From a phage, in sequence record PZ445515.1: DNA of 64,000 bases; one strand, given 5' to 3'. Position 1 is the first letter of the stretch. Each line of letters opens with the position of its first letter. The notes beneath the pieces were generated by a model that was given only the letters and a program-made list of their open reading frames with translations, searched no databases and was not told the origin of the DNA. Positions 1 through 34,730 of the stretch are shown one piece after another. The translations under genes were made by a program, and so were the position numbers.

Positions 1-747
1 CAGATTATTTGGTAAATTTACTTTAGAACCTTTAACAAATACCAGACGTGAAGCACCCTCCGCCTTAAACGGATCTACTATACCATCAGTAAATAACGGA
101 TCTGCAAAATAATGGAGCTGTACGGAAGAGTAATAAGCTAAGTCGGCAATATCAAAGCCGTACTTTTGTCTACTACTTTCATTGATAGATGTAAATAAGA
201 ATTTGATTTGACCCTGAGTTACTTTAACATTAGATTCTAGTATTAAGTGCATTCGGATACCTGGTTTTAGCCCAGCCGAAGACGATGCATGAGCGATAAA
301 CCCTGCATCAAGAGGAAACATATCCTCACTAATACTATTTAACATCCTAATAATATGTCGAGCCATGCCAACAAGATCAAACTTGTTACAACCACCTGTA
401 TCTACAATACCATCCACGTCCATTGCAATTATATGACTTGGATTAGATACATTAAAGTTGCCCTTCTTACGTCGCACATTATTTTTAGGTGCAAGACATC
501 GACCTCGTACCGCAACGATATGAGGGTCAGACGTTAAACGTCTCATAAGAGGAAGCATTTCTACTAGGGTTTGAGGATCAACTTCATCAATTACATCAAA
601 CTTGAAGGGCATTGAGGCTGGTTTACCTTCAGGATGCTTTGAGGAAAATCTTTTAGCAAAAAGATAGTCTTCTGCTTTAACTTCTCGCCAATTGCCTGTG
701 GCTAAATCGCGATGAAATCCTGCATGACCTTGTAGGATTGAGAACAC
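1..747 (-). CDS. hypothetical protein (partial; 3' end lies beyond window start)
   Basis: Minus-strand frame open across the whole interval; GTG at 747 preceded by AGGAG 7 nt upstream; no family recognised. Confidence 0.45.
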   Translation of the reverse strand, partial: MFSILQGHAGFHRDLATGNWREVKAEDYLFAKRFSSKHPEGKPASMPFKFDVIDEVDPQTLVEMLPLMRRLTSDPHIVAVRGRCLAPKNNVRRKKGNFNVSNPSHIIAMDVDGIVDTGGCNKFDLVGMARHIIRMLNSISEDMFPLDAGFIAHASSSAGLKPGIRMHLILESNVKVTQGQIKFLFTSINESSRQKYGFDIADLAYYSSVQLHYFADPLFTDGIVDPFKAEGASRLVFVKGSKVNLPNNL

Positions 748-25785: not shown

Positions 25786-25857
25786 GCACCTTTAGCTGAG
25801 ATGGATTAGCGCTTGCCTGAAGAGCTTGAGAGGTTCGTTCGATACGAACAGGGTGCA
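25786..25857 (+). tRNA. tRNA (anticodon probably GAA, Phe)
   Basis: Acceptor gcacctt/agggtgc, T-arm gttcg-TTCGATA-cgaac, CCA encoded; anticodon stem imperfect. Confidence 0.6.
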
Positions 25858-26142
25858 CCAAATTGAGGGAGCTGCTGATGCACCCTGAAAACTTCTTTAT
25901 TTACTGCGCGGATAAGTTGCTGAAACGTAGAATTAACAAAGTCTATCATTATCGTGCTAGTCAACAGCCTTATGTATACGCTTTTGACGGTGATCACATT
26001 CCATTAGAACAATTATCCTGTGATTACATGATATTGAAGAACTTTGACGAGACAAAGATCTCAAGCGTTCATAATCGACAGAATCCCTTAACGTGGAAAT
26101 ATAAGAAGAAAAAGAAAGGCATCAAATTTTTAAAAAATGTAG

Positions 26143-26171
26143 TTGCTTAGTTTCCAAAAGTTCTGTATAAT
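26143..26171 (+). promoter_or_regulatory. T5-type early promoter
   Basis: TTGCTT -35, 17 bp, TATAAT -10. Confidence 0.6.
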
Positions 26172-26219
26172 AATTACATAAATTGAACTGGAGAAGCAAC
26201 ATGACAGAACAAGATAAAT

Positions 26220-26292
26220 CGACCGTTGGCTGAATGGCTTAGGCGAAGGATTGCAAATCCTTTTTATGTGAGTTCAAATCTCATGCGGTCGT
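26220..26292 (+). tRNA. tRNA-Cys (anticodon GCA)
   Basis: Acceptor cgaccgt/gcggtcg, anticodon stem aagga/tcctt loop TTGCAAA, T-loop TTCAAAT, CCA encoded. Confidence 0.8.
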
Positions 26293-26297
26293 CCAAT

Positions 26298-26438
26298 TTG
26301 CTGAAAGAGTTGTTAAATCAATTCAGGCACGCGTAGGAACACTGTCTCCGTAATTGAAAGATGAGGCACGGTTTGGAGAGGTATGCCGCTACACGCTACG
26401 GTGCTAACTCCGTCTAGGTGAAAATCCTAGTCAGCAAT
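26298..26438 (+). ncRNA. tRNA-like / stable-RNA candidate (about 140 nt)
   Basis: 7-nt ends ttgctga/tcagcaa complementary, T-arm-like ctagg-TGAAAAT-cctag at 3' side; no CCA; too long for tRNA. Confidence 0.25.
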
Positions 26439-26447
26439 ATAAATTTA

Positions 26448-26527
26448 GGGTCGTTAGCCAAGCGGTTTGGCGGTGGACTGTTAATCCATGTCGAAAGACA
26501 ACGTAGGTTCGAATCCTACACGGCCCG
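26448..26527 (+). tRNA. tRNA with anticodon GTT (Asn-type) and unusually long variable arm
   Basis: Acceptor gggtcgt/acggccc, D-stem gcca/tggc, anticodon stem gtgga/tccat loop CTGTTAA, T-loop TTCGAAT, CCA encoded. Confidence 0.65.
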
Positions 26528-26632
26528 CCAAATTCTGTGTAGAGTTAAGTAAACCGGTAGCCAACCAGCTATCATTGCTGACATCGAATTCAGTCACAGA
26601 TACCATTTTCATTAATAACTGAGGAAACAAGC

Positions 26633-26818
26633 ATGTCCAAGAATGTAATTGCACAGCTAGAAGTTCATCGTGATAGCACTATCAACAATATTGAAGTTGA
26701 GAAGAAATACATCGAAGAACTTAAACATGATATACTAGTAAGTCTCAACCGTCTTAATGTACGAAAAAAGTTTCTTAAAGAACTTAATGCAGCTATTGAA
26801 AAACTCAAAGCTGAGTAA
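26633..26818 (+). CDS. hypothetical small coiled-coil protein
   Basis: 61 aa ORF. Confidence 0.5.
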   Translation: MSKNVIAQLEVHRDSTINNIEVEKKYIEELKHDILVSLNRLNVRKKFLKELNAAIEKLKAE

Positions 26819-26827
26819 ATGAATTAT

Positions 26828-26901
26828 GCGACCGGGGCTGGCTTGGTAATGGTACTCCCCTGTCACGGGAGGGAATGTGGGTTCAAATCCCATCGGTCGC
26901 G
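26828..26901 (+). tRNA. tRNA-Asp (anticodon GTC)
   Basis: Acceptor gcgaccg/cggtcgc, anticodon stem ctccc/gggag loop CTGTCAC, T-loop TTCAAAT, CCA encoded. Confidence 0.8.
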
Positions 26902-26930
26902 CCAAATTAAACTAGTACGAGAAATATGCT

Positions 26931-27278
26931 ATGATTAATGCTAAAGAAGAATTGTTACTTGCCTTAAAGAATATTAATTCTGAAGTTAAGTGTATTAAGA
27001 TAGAATTCGGTTATTATGGGGACAAAGAAGTTTGGGTGTTACCCGTAGGTTATACAGAAAAAGATATTGAAGATTTTCTAAATAATCTAGACTTTAAATA
27101 TGATTCTGGTTTCGGTGGGCAATTGCTTTATGGTAACGTGTGGTTTACTGATGGAACTTGGTTAGAACGTGGTGAATACGACGGTTCTGAATGGTGGGAA
27201 TATAAGGCTACACCAGCAATCCCAGAAGAATGCCGAACAATTAATGGTGAAGTAGATAATACTTTACGGTTAAACTAA
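26931..27278 (+). CDS. hypothetical protein
   Basis: 115 aa ORF. Confidence 0.55.
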   Translation: MINAKEELLLALKNINSEVKCIKIEFGYYGDKEVWVLPVGYTEKDIEDFLNNLDFKYDSGFGGQLLYGNVWFTDGTWLERGEYDGSEWWEYKATPAIPEECRTINGEVDNTLRLN

Positions 27279-27670
27279 TAAAATTTCAGTGCAGAACACG
27301 GAGCTAGCAATTCGGAAGTGCTGACTCATGATAAGCTGCCTATGTACTTGCGAAGCGGTCGTGTCCAAGACTCGGACTCTTGCACTGAAAACAATCAAAC
27401 ATTCTAGCGTGGTTGATGGGGAAACCAGCTTGGCGAGGGCAGAAGCTCGTTCGATTCGAGTGAAAGAATGGTTCTCGTAAGTCCGCACAAGTGATAACAG
27501 GTTCGAGTCCTGTCTAGAATGACACTATAAAGTTTACTTATTATGTAGGTTCCGATAGATCGGCGGGTCTATTCTGGCACTTAAGAGAGGTCTCGCAAAC
27601 TTCTTTGTCAGCCGTGGGGTTGGTAGCCTCCAGGTGGCCTACACAATAAGTAAATTTATTAAAAATTCAT

Positions 27671-28924: not shown

Positions 28925-29012
28925 GGAAGAGCAAATCGAATTGGTGACGAAAACCGCTTGGAAAGTGGCTGACTGGTAAAACGGCTTGAGAGTTCAAATC
29001 TCTCCTCTTCCG
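28925..29012 (+). tRNA. tRNA-Ser (anticodon GGA)
   Basis: Acceptor ggaagag/ctcttcc, anticodon loop TTGGAAA, long variable arm, T-loop TTCAAAT, CCA encoded. Confidence 0.75.
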
Positions 29013-29027
29013 CCAAACAATTTATAT

Positions 29028-29119
29028 GGTAGGTCAATCCAATGGCTGGCGCTGGACTCCGACTTGAAATCGGTTGATCGTAGTGATACGGTGTAAGGGT
29101 TCGATCCCCTTACCTACCT
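29028..29119 (+). tRNA. tRNA-Ser (anticodon TGA)
   Basis: Acceptor ggtaggt/acctacc, anticodon loop CTTGAAA, long variable arm, T-loop TTCGATC, CCA encoded. Confidence 0.75.
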
Positions 29120-29488
29120 CCAAATCCTGAAGTATGCCGGAATCGGTAGACGGGGCTGCCTAAAAGGTTTATAGGGAACATCCACTCCCTGCAACATACC
29201 TCATAAAGCGGCTGAGATAAATGGTCTATCTCGTGAAGGTTCAAGTCCTTCTGCTTCTTGATACACCAATGGCTCAAAGTGTAACGGTGCTATTTGATGC
29301 GCTTAGTAAGACTTCCCCGACATGCGTTCGGGAGTAAGCTGCTAAGACTAGAGTAGAAGAGTTTCTGAGAGCCGCCACAATTGAAAATTCGTACTCGTCT
29401 TGAGCTGCGTGCAATAGGAGATAACTTGATTAGTATTCTAGAACATGCTAATTGAGGAAGGTTTCGCTAACCCTGCGAGTTTTCAATT

Positions 29489-33787: not shown

Positions 33788-34175
33788 TTTAGACCCTAGA
33801 ATTAAATTTGCAATTACAGAAATCCAAGATCAAATTGATGAGGATTTCACTGTTTGGTCAAGGTCTGGTAATGGAGAATATTGCCAGCTTTATAGTATGA
33901 AAATGGGTATCTCAATTGAGCTTAATATCAACCCTGAAGGTAGAGTAGAAGCCCAACCCATGTTCAGTGTTCCAGGCTTCTCTGGATTTGTTGCAGGCAT
34001 AAAATTGTGTCTACCAAATAACCATCTTCATCGAGTTATTTGTCAGCTAGAGACTATTAAGCATTTCTTGCCAGAAGATAACATTAATGACTACTACCAC
34101 GAAGTTGTAGCAGCTCATATGATGAAAGAATCTAAACGTCGGAGAGAAGAACGTGAAAAGACTAAACATCAATAG
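33780..34175 (+). CDS. hypothetical protein
   Basis: 131 aa from ATG 33780. Confidence 0.5.
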   Translation: MNNLDPRIKFAITEIQDQIDEDFTVWSRSGNGEYCQLYSMKMGISIELNINPEGRVEAQPMFSVPGFSGFVAGIKLCLPNNHLHRVICQLETIKHFLPEDNINDYYHEVVAAHMMKESKRRREEREKTKHQ

Positions 34176-34449
34176 CACAGTGCAGATTCCAGCAACTAAG
34201 GATGTTTTAACATTCCTACGGAGTGAAAACGCTCAGTTTTGGCATGATCATGTTGTAAAGAACGGTAGTACTCCAGATGTAGTTGCCTTTGCTAAAAAAC
34301 GTATCGAAGAATATAAAGATCCAGAGATTAAAGATGGGATGATTACTATGCAATTGTGGGTAGCCATGAATACGTTTGGACCTACTATGAGTCTAGGAGT
34401 TACTCCACTGTTTACTAATATTCTAATTAATGAAAAGGATCTGAAATGA
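34153..34449 (+). CDS. hypothetical protein
   Basis: 98 aa ORF. Confidence 0.5.
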   Translation: MKRLNINSTVQIPATKDVLTFLRSENAQFWHDHVVKNGSTPDVVAFAKKRIEEYKDPEIKDGMITMQLWVAMNTFGPTMSLGVTPLFTNILINEKDLK

Positions 34450-34730
34450 TTATCTCTCCATTTGCCCTTTGGTTCGTCATTGGATCTATAGTAGCTATTT
34501 ACAGCTTGGTTGATGATCTGTATATTTCTAAGAATAAAGATGTAATATTATACGTTATACATAAAACTCGACCGTTAGATCTGCCTCCTCTTGATGATAA
34601 AACATTACTCAGATGTGCTAGATCTATGATATTTATTGTGGATATTCTTCTAGGCCCAACATCTGTGTTTTTCTTTTATAGAAAGACTCGTAATATGAAA
34701 AAATTTAAAGCTGAAATGCAGAATACCTAA
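34446..34730 (+). CDS. hypothetical membrane protein
   Basis: 94 aa, two hydrophobic segments. Confidence 0.5.
   Translation: MIISPFALWFVIGSIVAIYSLVDDLYISKNKDVILYVIHKTRPLDLPPLDDKTLLRCARSMIFIVDILLGPTSVFFFYRKTRNMKKFKAEMQNT

What the first reader, a model, noticed from the sequence alone, without database searches (positions are those of the whole stretch)
26298..26438. Oversized tRNA-like element with paired 7-nt ends and a T-arm-like hairpin
ttgctga at the 5' end pairs perfectly with tcagcaa 135 nt downstream, immediately after a hairpin ctagg-TGAAAAT-cctag positioned like a T-arm. There is no encoded CCA, whereas all confident tRNAs here have one, and the length is too great for a tRNA. It could be a processed stable RNA using tRNA-like ends, or a degenerate tRNA with an insertion.
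Basis: seen in the sequence. Interest (0 to 1): 0.45.

Follow-up and report, generated by a model that had tools for sequence, protein, structure and literature searches.

The report
Unannotated tRNA-shaped RNA in T5-like phages
Between two tRNA genes of a T5-like phage lies a conserved 141-base gene for an RNA shaped like a tRNA with a greatly enlarged anticodon arm, a new example of the "tRNA-like stable RNAs of unknown function" long known in phages T5 and T4.

Summary
No CCA follows, whereas all 21 ARAGORN tRNAs in the window encode CCA.

The window is the tRNA cluster of a T5-like phage (Demerecviridae). The element sits 2 nt after tRNA-Cys and 10 nt before tRNA-Asn, on the same strand, downstream of the homologue of promoter P14b.

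About 220 phage records carry it, in three lineages: Tequintavirus/Epseptimavirus, Klebsiella/Yersinia T5-likes, and the unrelated Klebsiella myoviruses of genus Mydovirus. It always lies inside a tRNA array.

Across these lineages 15 of 34 proposed base pairs change on both sides while staying paired. The fold is a cloverleaf:
- a 7-bp acceptor stem;
- a D-like hairpin;
- a 10-bp "anticodon" arm ending in a two-hairpin junction with a 19-nt invariant core;
- a T arm with the unusual loop UGAAAAU.

ARAGORN, Rfam and tmRNA searches find nothing, and no record seen annotates it. T5 itself lacks it: T5.069 (172 aa) sits in its place.

Most likely it is cut out by the tRNA-processing enzymes as a stable RNA. 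That step is inferred, and its function is unknown. It is a new member of a known kind and moderately interesting.

The parts
26123..26197 (+). Homologue of promoter P14b, the likely start of the transcript tRNA-Cys - element - tRNA-Asn
   Evidence: 98.7% identical to the feature annotated 'promoter P14b' in the phage 5 tRNA-region record AJ604531. The simple consensus scan misses it because its -35 hexamer is TTGCTT. No + strand terminator-like site was found in 25800-27400.
26220..26295 (+). tRNA-Cys(GCA), the upstream neighbour; ends in CCA 2 nt before the element
   Evidence: ARAGORN; Rfam tRNA model, 48.5 bits.
26298..26438 (+). The whole tRNA-shaped RNA gene (141 nt, including the discriminator-like T26438)
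   Evidence: Covariance model R1 scores 174 bits here, 170-176 bits in T5-like phages and 138-139 bits in Mydovirus. BLAST homology to other lineages ends at 26439.
26298..26304 (+). Acceptor-like stem, 5' strand (TTGCTGA); predicted RNase P cut is between 26297 and 26298
   Evidence: Pairs with 26431-26437. Four of the 7 pairs change on both sides across lineages: TTACTGA/TCAGTAA and TTGTCTA/TAGACAA.
26307..26324 (+). D-like hairpin (GAGTTG-TTAAAT-CAATTC); 6 bp here, 5 bp in Mydovirus; the loop has no GG
   Evidence: Five of the 6 pairs show both-side changes. RNAalifold recovers the hairpin.
26326..26336 (+). Long 'anticodon' arm, 5' strand: GGCAC, bulged G26331, CGTAG
   Evidence: Pairs with 26396-26405. 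Two pairs covary on both sides (C-G to G-C, A-U to U-G) and none is mismatched. RNAalifold recovers it on the clean alignment, and it appears in the Mydovirus single-sequence MFE.
26343..26368 (+). Distal hairpin 1 at the tip of the long arm (TGTCTC / GAGGCA with a 14-nt loop)
   Evidence: Three pairs show both-side changes. The outermost pair is not kept in the Klebsiella-type lineage.
26369..26388 (+). Distal hairpin 2 (CGGT / GCCG); sequence invariant, so predicted by energy only
   Evidence: Predicted by RNAalifold. No variation exists to test it.
26383..26401 (+). 19-nt core ATGCCGCTACACGCTACGG, identical in T5-like and Mydovirus copies; contains the tandem CGCTAC-A-CGCTAC
   Evidence: Invariant columns in the alignment of ten copies from the three lineages. 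Collection scans keyed on a 17-nt part of this core found only these phages, plus chance matches inside coding sequence.
26396..26405 (+). Long arm, 3' strand (CTACG GTGCT)
26406..26413 (+). Variable-region-like linker AACTCCGT; CTC 26408-26410 may pair with GAG 26376-26378 as a pseudoknot
   Evidence: One compensatory change in Mydovirus (A-U to G-C). Unresolved with only three lineages.
26414..26430 (+). T arm: CTAGG - TGAAAAT - CCTAG
   Evidence: The middle pair flips A-T to T-A in Mydovirus, and the loop is constant apart from a T-to-C change at its last base in one copy. The loop differs from the TTCRANY loops of all 21 tRNAs in the window.
26431..26437 (+). Acceptor-like stem, 3' strand (TCAGCAA), followed by T26438 and no CCA
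26448..26530 (+). tRNA-Asn(GTT), the downstream neighbour, 10 nt after the acceptor stem of the element
   Evidence: ARAGORN; Rfam tRNA model, 59 bits.

Best explanation
26298-26438 (+) is a gene for a structured, non-decoding, tRNA-shaped RNA.

Shown here. It folds as a cloverleaf:
- a 7-bp acceptor stem stacked on a 5-bp T stem (12 bp together);
- a D-like hairpin;
- a 10-bp arm in the anticodon position that ends in a junction with two hairpins and a 19-nt invariant core.

This fold is kept by compensatory substitutions in three phage lineages from two unrelated phage families. The element is always embedded, in the same orientation, in a tRNA gene array.

Inferred, about 0.65. It is co-transcribed with tRNA-Cys and tRNA-Asn from the P14b-type promoter.
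- RNase P would cut between 26297 and 26298, because it recognises the acceptor/T-stem stack and the T loop.
- The 3' end would be made when RNase P cuts ahead of tRNA-Asn (or RNase E cuts in the AU-rich spacer) and exonucleases trim back to T26438.
- The host CCA-adding enzyme may then add CCA.
- The product would be a stable RNA of about 141-144 nt, like RNA1 and RNA2 of T5 and RNAC of T4.

Inferred more weakly, about 0.2-0.3. It acts in trans as a tRNA look-alike. The tRNA-shaped body would give entry to tRNA-binding proteins, and the invariant tip of the long arm would be the specific working part.

It is an accessory gene. T5 itself and deletion variants lack it.
For: - Anatomy read from the sequence.
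- Host and context: 100% identity to T5-like phages; the tRNA array runs on the + strand; the promoter P14b homologue lies at 26123-26197; no + strand terminator-like site nearby.
- Spread: 220 phage records carry it. The context differs in every lineage: Cys-el-Asn here, Cys-Asn-el in phiR2-01, ORF-Asn-el in Spivey, Ser-el-Ser in Mydovirus. In every case it starts 2-3 nt after the CCA of a tRNA.
- Covariation, hand alignment: 15 of 34 pairs change on both sides and 1 pair has a non-pair.
- Covariation, model-based alignment: 96.3% of cells paired against 25-40% for slid partners; 18 pairs with both-side changes against 1-3; 0 of 500 shuffles as high.
- RNAalifold on the clean alignment recovers the same helices on its own.
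- G-U pairs (26326-26405 in all copies, and others) would be A-C mismatches on the minus strand, so the + strand is the RNA.
- No ORF of 20 aa or more lies within the element on either strand; two + strand ORFs overlap its ends, but both run through the neighbouring tRNA genes.
- Precedent: the curated T5 and phage 5 records annotate 'tRNA-like stable RNA with unknown functions' (RNA1 144 nt, RNA2 125 nt) in the same cluster. RNA2 shows the same layout, and T4 RNAC has a canonical T arm near its 3' end with at most a weak end pairing.
- That RNase P and the CCA-adding enzyme recognise the acceptor/T-stem minihelix is established knowledge, not tested here.
Against: - No expression or end-mapping data were available, so processing and stability are untested.
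- No 3' RCCA is encoded, and it helps binding by bacterial RNase P.
- Position +1 is U, not G.
- The T loop lacks U55 and C56 and the D loop lacks GG, so a canonical tRNA elbow is not assured.
- Only three lineages exist, so the covariation rests on few independent events. The model-based alignment leans towards the model, and it also contains one unrelated tRNA-Lys row, a partial, a deletion copy and an error-laden copy.
- The single-sequence z-score is weak (-1.6).
- The element is dispensable: T5 proper lacks it, and in the NR01-type phage a deletion ends inside it.
- Nothing found points to a target or partner.
Confidence: 0.62

Rival explanations
1. It is a cis-acting processing spacer only. 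A tRNA-shaped fold attracts RNase P and so separates and matures the neighbouring tRNAs (or nearby small mRNAs), and the excised piece has no function of its own.
For: It lies between two tRNAs at tRNA-like spacing. The T5 tRNA region mixes tRNAs, small ORFs and several tRNA-like RNAs. The element can be lost.
Against: Other adjacent tRNA pairs in the same cluster are separated by only 6-8 nt and need no such spacer. A mere RNase P handle would not need a 19-nt core invariant between two phage families, nor a conserved, covarying 80-nt distal arm. The element has moved as a discrete unit into different tRNA contexts.
Confidence: 0.15
2. It is a decaying tRNA gene that suffered an insertion in its anticodon region (a pseudogene), still flanked by its old acceptor and T arms.
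For: The overall cloverleaf order is acceptor, D-like, anticodon-position arm, T arm. T5 RNA1 looks like a class II tRNA with an insert. The element is dispensable.
Against: Substitutions are compensatory in all five helices, including the supposed insert. The insert holds the most conserved sequence. No anticodon loop remains if the distal part is removed, and ARAGORN with intron search finds nothing. The Rfam tRNA model gives no hit at E up to 10. Copies remain 75% identical between Demerecviridae and Vequintavirinae.
Confidence: 0.06
3. It is a DNA-level element or a minus-strand transcript (for example a recombination or homing-endonuclease target, or an antisense RNA) rather than a + strand RNA.
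For: The region is a mosaic hot spot. T5.069 with a different tRNA-Asn replaces it in T5, HNH endonuclease genes are scattered in the cluster, and a deletion ends inside it. The minus strand also folds stably (z -2.1).
Against: Conserved G-U pairs exist only in the + sense. The pattern of change is paired, not palindromic. All flanking genes and the promoter are on the + strand.
Confidence: 0.03
4. It is a chance inverted repeat next to a chance hairpin.
For: About 2 such motifs are expected per 64 kb of random sequence. The folding z-score is weak.
Against: Conservation and covariation across three lineages, and its exact placement in tRNA arrays.
Confidence: 0.01

Closest known systems
Phage T5 'tRNA-like stable RNAs with unknown functions', RNA1 (144 nt) and RNA2 (125 nt), as annotated in GenBank AY543070 and AJ604531
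   Same: Same gene cluster, same strand, similar size. RNA2 has the same plan: a 7-8-bp end pairing directly after a T arm, a D-like hairpin, and an enlarged arm in the anticodon position. Function unknown. Homologues of both are also present in this window, at 29133-29270 and 27400-27524.
   Different: No detectable sequence or model-level homology: blastn found nothing, and model R1 finds nothing in the T5 locus L001. RNA1 and RNA2 have canonical GGTTCRANTCC T arms, whereas this element has TGAAAAT. Those RNAs are annotated in the records as stable RNAs; this one is annotated in no record examined, including the curated phage 5 record that contains it.
Phage T4 RNAC (species 1 RNA, 139 nt) and RNAD (species 2), encoded at the end of the T4 tRNA cluster
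   Same: Small stable RNAs encoded within a phage tRNA cluster. RNAC is of nearly equal length and has a T arm next to its 3' end. Their roles are still unknown (PMC3014915; PMC9697503).
   Different: No sequence similarity, and no model hit in the T4 locus. The T4 RNAC T loop is canonical (TTCGAAT), and its end pairing is imperfect.
Canonical tRNA (Rfam RF00005)
   Same: 7-bp acceptor stem, 5-bp T stem with a 7-nt loop whose first and fifth bases (U...A) could form the T-loop pair, cloverleaf order of arms, and position in a tRNA array.
   Different: 141 nt; no 7-nt anticodon loop; T loop UGAAAAU instead of UUCRANY; no GG in the D loop; 6-bp D stem; no CCA although every tRNA of this phage encodes one. 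Not detected by ARAGORN or Rfam.
tmRNA (tRNA-like domain plus a large insert in place of the anticodon arm)
   Same: An acceptor stem plus T arm that encloses a large structured insert.
   Different: ARAGORN tmRNA mode and Rfam find nothing. The element is far shorter than known tmRNAs. An apparent frame, GCC...TAG, is destroyed in Mydovirus, where TAG becomes TTG as part of the T-stem covariation (read from the sequences).
Other phage tRNA-like genes with the same odd T arm (GGTGAAAATCC), found here in IMG/VR contigs
   Same: Identical T arm CTTGG-TGAAAAT-CCAAG to the Mydovirus copy; location inside tRNA arrays; non-standard anticodon arms. They are a 68-nt RNA in L035 and a 76-nt 'tRNA-??? 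(ctct)' in at least 9 contigs.
   Different: They are tRNA-sized, encode CCA, and lack the long arm and the 19-nt core. Model R1 scores are only 21 bits, E 0.002-0.008. Common descent is not established.

Membership tests
Canonical tRNA (RF00005) | Detected by tRNA covariance or heuristic models | tested here: not met
   ARAGORN default, intron and mitochondrial modes give nothing at 26298-26438. Rfam gives no tRNA hit at gathering score or at E up to 10, nor on the Mydovirus copy.
Canonical tRNA (RF00005) | 5-bp anticodon stem with a 7-nt loop carrying U33 and an anticodon | tested here: not met
   The arm in that position is 10 bp with a bulge and opens into a junction with two hairpins. No 7-nt loop remains.
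Canonical tRNA (RF00005) | T loop U54-U55-C56-R57-A58 and D loop G18-G19 | tested here: not met
   The T loop is TGAAAAT and the D-like loop is TTAAAT. All 21 tRNAs of the window have TTCRANY-type loops.
Canonical tRNA (RF00005) | 7-bp acceptor stem stacked on a 5-bp T stem | tested here: met
   26298-26304/26431-26437 and 26414-26418/26426-26430 abut each other, and both are supported by compensatory changes.
T5-type tRNA-like stable RNAs (RNA1, RNA2) | Encoded in the phage tRNA cluster on the tRNA strand, with tRNA-like ends and a size of 100-150 nt | tested here: met
T5-type tRNA-like stable RNAs (RNA1, RNA2) | Sequence homology to RNA1 or RNA2 | tested here: not met
   blastn found no match between them and the element. 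Model R1 finds no hit in the T5 locus L001.
T5-type tRNA-like stable RNAs (RNA1, RNA2) | Accumulates as a discrete stable RNA in infected cells | not testable with these tools
   No expression data were available. No paper on it was found.
T4 RNAC/RNAD | Homology to rnaC or rnaD | tested here: not met
   blastn-short gives only 6-7-nt chance matches. R1 finds no hit in the T4 locus L032.
tmRNA | tRNA-like domain plus a conserved tag reading frame; detected by ARAGORN or Rfam | tested here: not met
   ARAGORN -m finds 0 genes. Rfam finds none. The candidate frame is not conserved in Mydovirus (sequences).
RNase P substrate (functional class) | 12-bp acceptor/T-stem stack, a T loop, and a single-stranded 5' leader | tested here: met
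   The geometry is present and conserved. The base at -1 is U.
RNase P substrate (functional class) | Actual cleavage at the +1 position | not testable with these tools
   Needs an in vitro assay or an rnpA(ts) host.
Bacterial Y RNA-like YrlA, group I intron-containing tRNA, known ribozymes | Match to the Rfam family model | tested here: not met
   Only two weak matches, sR24 snoRNA (E 2.5) on the element and plastid UTR models on the tRNA-Asn minus strand; nothing else at E up to 10. No hit on the Mydovirus copy.

The most novel reading that the evidence does not exclude
The element is a mobile tRNA mimic used in phage-host conflict. It would be matured by RNase P like a tRNA. Its tRNA-shaped body would then be bound by a tRNA-recognising host protein, for example a tRNA-cleaving defence nuclease or a tRNA-processing or modifying enzyme. 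The invariant tip of the long arm (26383-26401) would block or divert that protein.

This would explain three observations: it has been exchanged between unrelated phage families, it is always found within tRNA arrays, and it is present in only about a third of T5-like phages. If so, it would also give a first functional handle on the decades-old class of phage 'tRNA-like stable RNAs of unknown function'.
Probability: 0.15. Interest if true: 0.75.

Novelty: new member of a known kind. Interest (0 to 1): 0.42.

Why it matters
Phages T4 and T5 have been known for some fifty years to make small stable RNAs from their tRNA clusters, and nobody knows what they do. This element adds an unannotated member with unusually clear comparative support: five helices with compensatory changes, a 19-nt core invariant across two phage families, and movement as a discrete unit between tRNA arrays.

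It has no Rfam family and is missed by all standard annotation tools, so it could seed a new family. It occurs naturally in some easily grown T5-like coliphages and Salmonella phages and is absent from T5 itself, which gives ready-made plus and minus strains for testing a function. This is timely because phage tRNAs are now known to counter tRNA-targeting defences.

If it turns out to be only a processed by-product, it is still a useful annotation correction. Several records place spurious 'hypothetical protein' or 'DNA ligase' CDSs over it.

Tried and rejected
- **tRNA and tmRNA finders.** ARAGORN in default, intron, relaxed and mitochondrial modes gave nothing. One call at a lowered threshold (59-223 of the segment, overlapping tRNA-Cys) is spurious.
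- **Rfam.** The search at gathering score and at E up to 10, on both the window and the Mydovirus copy, gave no relevant family.
- **Coding potential.** No ORF of 20 aa or more lies within the element. A possible tmRNA-like tag frame is not conserved.
- **Homology to named phage RNAs.** T5 RNA1, RNA2, RNA3, RNAI, RNAIII, RNAIV and RNA2H, and T4 rnaC and rnaD, showed no similarity.
- **Search for more distant relatives.**
  - Seven pattern scans of IMG/VR, one of JGI metagenomes and one of GTDB genomes were run with the invariant core, the T arm and gapped patterns.
  - Covariance-model searches then screened about 130 of the roughly 250 returned loci; the rest were checked only with a script for the T-arm-plus-acceptor motif.
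  - Only the same three lineages were found. There was none in bacterial genomes, and no match in 5,426 E. coli genomes.
  - Weak hits (L034, L039, L033, L036, L037) are coding sequences or chance matches. L150 (150 nt, same T arm, no tRNAs nearby, E 0.33) was left as probable chance.
- **Odd T loop as a family marker.** The idea that GGTGAAAATCC marks one superfamily was weakened, because the loop also occurs in an otherwise ordinary suppressor tRNA (L264).
- **Core fold.** MAFFT misaligned the Mydovirus 5' end, so I used a hand alignment and a model-based alignment instead. RNAalifold on the noisy alignment preferred a small ACGG/CCGT hairpin over the long arm. On the clean alignment it returned the long arm.
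- **Pseudoknots.** The candidates could not be resolved with three lineages.
- **Targets.** A search for targets by complementarity was judged uninformative, since tens of 10-mer matches are expected by chance, and was not pursued.
- **Literature.** Searches found no description of this element.

Full report
**1. What is in the sequence**

- ttgctga occupies 26298-26304, and its perfect reverse complement tcagcaa occupies 26431-26437.
- The hairpin ctagg (26414-26418), tgaaaat, cctag (26426-26430) abuts the 3' strand, exactly as a T arm abuts the acceptor stem in a tRNA.
- After T26438 comes ATAAATTTA, then tRNA-Asn. No CCA is encoded.
- All 21 tRNAs that ARAGORN finds in the window end in CCA and have TTCRANY-type T loops.

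ARAGORN finds nothing here in any mode, including intron and tmRNA modes. Rfam finds nothing at gathering score or at E up to 10.

The motif alone is not beyond chance. A 7-bp end pairing directly after a 5-bp/7-nt-loop hairpin turns up about twice per 64 kb of randomised sequence, and the folding z-score is only -1.6.

**2. Where the window comes from**

The window is the tRNA region of a T5-like phage (Demerecviridae). The 451 bases around the element are 100% identical to several Escherichia phages such as T5_ev212 and EC148.

The + strand is the transcribed strand of the tRNA array. The stretch 26123-26197 is 98.7% identical to the feature annotated as promoter P14b in the curated phage 5 tRNA-region record. 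No + strand terminator-like site lies nearby. The element starts 2 nt after the CCA of tRNA-Cys and ends 10 nt before tRNA-Asn.

The curated T5 record annotates a whole set of 'stable RNAs with unknown functions' in this cluster, among them the 'tRNA-like' RNA1 (144 nt), RNA2 (125 nt) and RNA3. Their homologues are present elsewhere in the window.

The element studied here is none of them. T5 proper lacks it: between tRNA-Cys and the T arm of tRNA-Asn, T5 carries ORF T5.069 (172 aa) and a different type of tRNA-Asn. The phage 5 record does contain the element but leaves it unannotated. So do all the other records seen, apart from a few spurious CDS calls.

**3. Relatives**

blastn finds the element in about 220 phage records, out of about 755 that match the flanking tRNAs. 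They fall into three lineages:
- the Tequintavirus/Epseptimavirus type, as in the window;
- a Klebsiella/Yersinia T5-like type, about 89-91% identical, with ends TTACTGA...TCAGTAA;
- at 75% identity, Klebsiella myoviruses of genus Mydovirus (Vequintavirinae), an unrelated phage family, with a 136-nt copy and ends TTGTCTA...TAGACAA.

The neighbours differ in every case: Cys-element-Asn, Cys-Asn-element, ORF-Asn-element, Ser-element-Ser. The element always lies in a tRNA array, in the tRNA orientation, 2-3 nt after a CCA. Detectable homology stops at its predicted 3' end. It therefore behaves as a discrete unit, like a tRNA gene.

Nine pattern scans of IMG/VR, JGI metagenomes and GTDB genomes, a search of E. 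coli genomes, and covariance-model screening of about 130 of the roughly 250 returned loci found no further lineage and no bacterial copy. The remaining loci were checked only with a script for the T-arm-plus-acceptor motif.

**4. Structure**

Comparing the three lineages gives a cloverleaf:
- acceptor stem 26298-26304 / 26431-26437;
- two unpaired A;
- D-like hairpin 26307-26324;
- one unpaired A;
- a long arm in the anticodon position: GGCAC, bulged G, CGTAG at 26326-26336, pairing with CTACG GTGCT at 26396-26405;
- an 8-nt linker, 26406-26413;
- T arm 26414-26430.

The long arm opens into a junction with two hairpins. The first (26343-26368) covaries. The second (26369-26388) is invariant, so it is predicted only by energy.

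The comparative support is as follows.
- In a hand alignment, 15 of 34 pairs change on both sides while staying paired, and only one pair has a non-pair.
- On the alignment made by covariance model R1, 96.3% of cells are paired against 25-40% when the 3' partners are slid by 1-3 columns. Eighteen pairs change on both sides against 1-3 in the slid controls, and no shuffle of 500 reaches the observed values.
- That alignment is fitted to the model, and it also contains one unrelated tRNA-Lys row, a partial, a deletion copy and an error-laden copy. The events number only a few per helix. Still, the acceptor stem, T arm and long arm are column-unambiguous.
- RNAalifold recovers the same helices independently on the clean alignment, and the Mydovirus single-sequence MFE contains the long arm.
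- Conserved G-U pairs exist only in the + sense, which fixes the strand.

The 19 bases ATGCCGCTACACGCTACGG (26383-26401) are identical in all three lineages. A possible pseudoknot, GAG 26376-26378 with CTC 26408-26410, has one compensatory change but remains unresolved.

**5. What it is not**

- It is not a tRNA. It has no anticodon loop, a T loop UGAAAAU instead of UUCRANY, no GG in the D loop, no CCA, and no model hit.
- It is not an intron-containing tRNA.
- It is not a tmRNA. Nothing detects it as one, and an apparent reading frame is destroyed by the T-stem covariation in Mydovirus.
- It is not coding.
- It is not a decaying pseudogene, because the 'insert' is the best conserved and a covarying part.
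- It is not homologous to T5 RNA1 or RNA2, or to T4 RNAC or RNAD.

**6. How it most likely works**

Shown: this is a conserved, structured RNA gene with tRNA architecture, inside a tRNA transcription unit.

Inferred from established knowledge of tRNA maturation: the 12-bp acceptor/T-stem stack with a T loop is what RNase P and the CCA-adding enzyme recognise.
- RNase P should cut at 26297/26298.
- The cut ahead of tRNA-Asn, followed by exonucleolytic trimming, should set the 3' end near 26438.
- The product would be a stable RNA of about 141-144 nt, as annotated for RNA1 and RNA2 of T5 and shown by Northern blot for RNAC of T4 (PMC9697503).

I put this at about 0.65. Points against it: there is no encoded RCCA, position +1 is U, and a canonical elbow is doubtful.

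What the RNA then does is unknown. My best guess (0.2-0.3) is a trans-acting tRNA look-alike whose invariant distal junction is the working part. A pure processing spacer (0.15) is the main rival. It fits poorly with the invariant core, and other tRNA pairs in the cluster are separated by only 6-8 nt.

The element is accessory. T5 lacks it, and in the NR01-type phage a deletion ends inside it.

**7. Comparison with what is known, and novelty**

It works like, and sits among, the phage 'tRNA-like stable RNAs of unknown function': T5 RNA1 and RNA2, and T4 RNAC. The roles of the T4 RNAs are still unknown (PMC3014915, PMC9697503).

It shares their defining architecture and location but not their sequence. 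Its stability has not been tested. I therefore file it as a new member of a known kind, not as a member of any named family. No Rfam family, database annotation or paper describing it was found.

**8. Verdict**

- Observation: confirmed.
- Interpretation: partly supported. 'Stable RNA with tRNA-like ends' is favoured, 'degenerate tRNA' is rejected, and processing is unproven.
- Interest: moderate (0.42). It is a well-supported new structured RNA in a model phage group, shared across phage families, but of a kind already known and with no function in sight.
- Most novel reading not excluded: a mobile tRNA mimic used against a tRNA-binding host factor or defence (probability about 0.15).

Noticed in passing
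window 27285-27389 (+): A second unannotated element with the same end geometry: 7-bp pairing TTCAGTG/CACTGAA directly after the hairpin CAAGA-CTCGGAC-TCTTG, 105 nt, just upstream of the RNA2 homologue. It is 99% conserved in T5 (AY543070 33084-33204) and phage 5, and unannotated in both.
   Followed up: partly
window 28925-29011 and 29028-29118 (+): Two tRNA-Ser-like genes at the positions of T5 tRNA-Ser2 and tRNA-Ser1. ARAGORN default and Rfam at gathering score both miss them. Only the second is called, as tRNA-Ser(tga), with a relaxed ARAGORN threshold.
   Followed up: partly
window 26448-26530 (+): The tRNA-Asn(GTT) next to the element is 83 nt, with a 10-nt insertion forming a long variable arm. 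That is unusual for tRNA-Asn. T5 proper carries a different, normal-length tRNA-Asn at this place.
   Followed up: no
L001 (T5 AY543070) record 34006-34524, the place corresponding to window 26298-26500: In T5 the element and the 5' part of tRNA-Asn are replaced by ORF T5.069 (172 aa; from memory, the founding member of the T5orf172 domain) fused to another tRNA-Asn. The same ORF-tRNA-Asn cassette precedes the element in Klebsiella phage Spivey. This suggests cassette exchange within the tRNA array.
   Followed up: partly
L014 924-1055 (-), Salmonella phage NR01-type contig: A deletion removing tRNA-Leu to tRNA-Cys ends inside the element. Only its 3' two thirds remain, fused to a P14b-like promoter and leader.
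   Followed up: partly
L035 4184-4251 (-); L075 9467-9542 (+) and the same gene in L077, L087, L127, L209, L219, L222, L269, L271; L264 1033-1106 (+): The unusual T arm with loop TGAAAAT also occurs in tRNA arrays of unrelated environmental phages. There is a 68-nt tRNA-like gene with a 5-nt 'anticodon' loop, a 76-nt 'tRNA-??? (ctct)' with a 10-nt loop in at least 9 large contigs, and a suppressor tRNA (tta). All of these encode CCA.
   Followed up: partly
window 26533-26605 (+): Homologue of T5 'RNA3, putative tRNA-like RNA' directly after tRNA-Asn. So three non-tRNA structured RNAs (the element, RNA3, and further on RNA2 and RNAIV) lie within 1.4 kb.
   Followed up: no
L004 (Klebsiella phage BIS47) 2536-2757 (-); L024 (Roth37) 487-630 (+): Database records place protein-coding calls over the element, including a 73-aa 'DNA ligase' on the opposite strand in BIS47. 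These are probably annotation artefacts.
   Followed up: no
window 26202-26234 (+): A Shine-Dalgarno-like GGAG and an ATG open a 10-codon frame (MTEQDKSTVG) that runs into tRNA-Cys, just after promoter P14b. T5 annotates a 43-aa ORF (T5.070) at the corresponding place.
   Followed up: no
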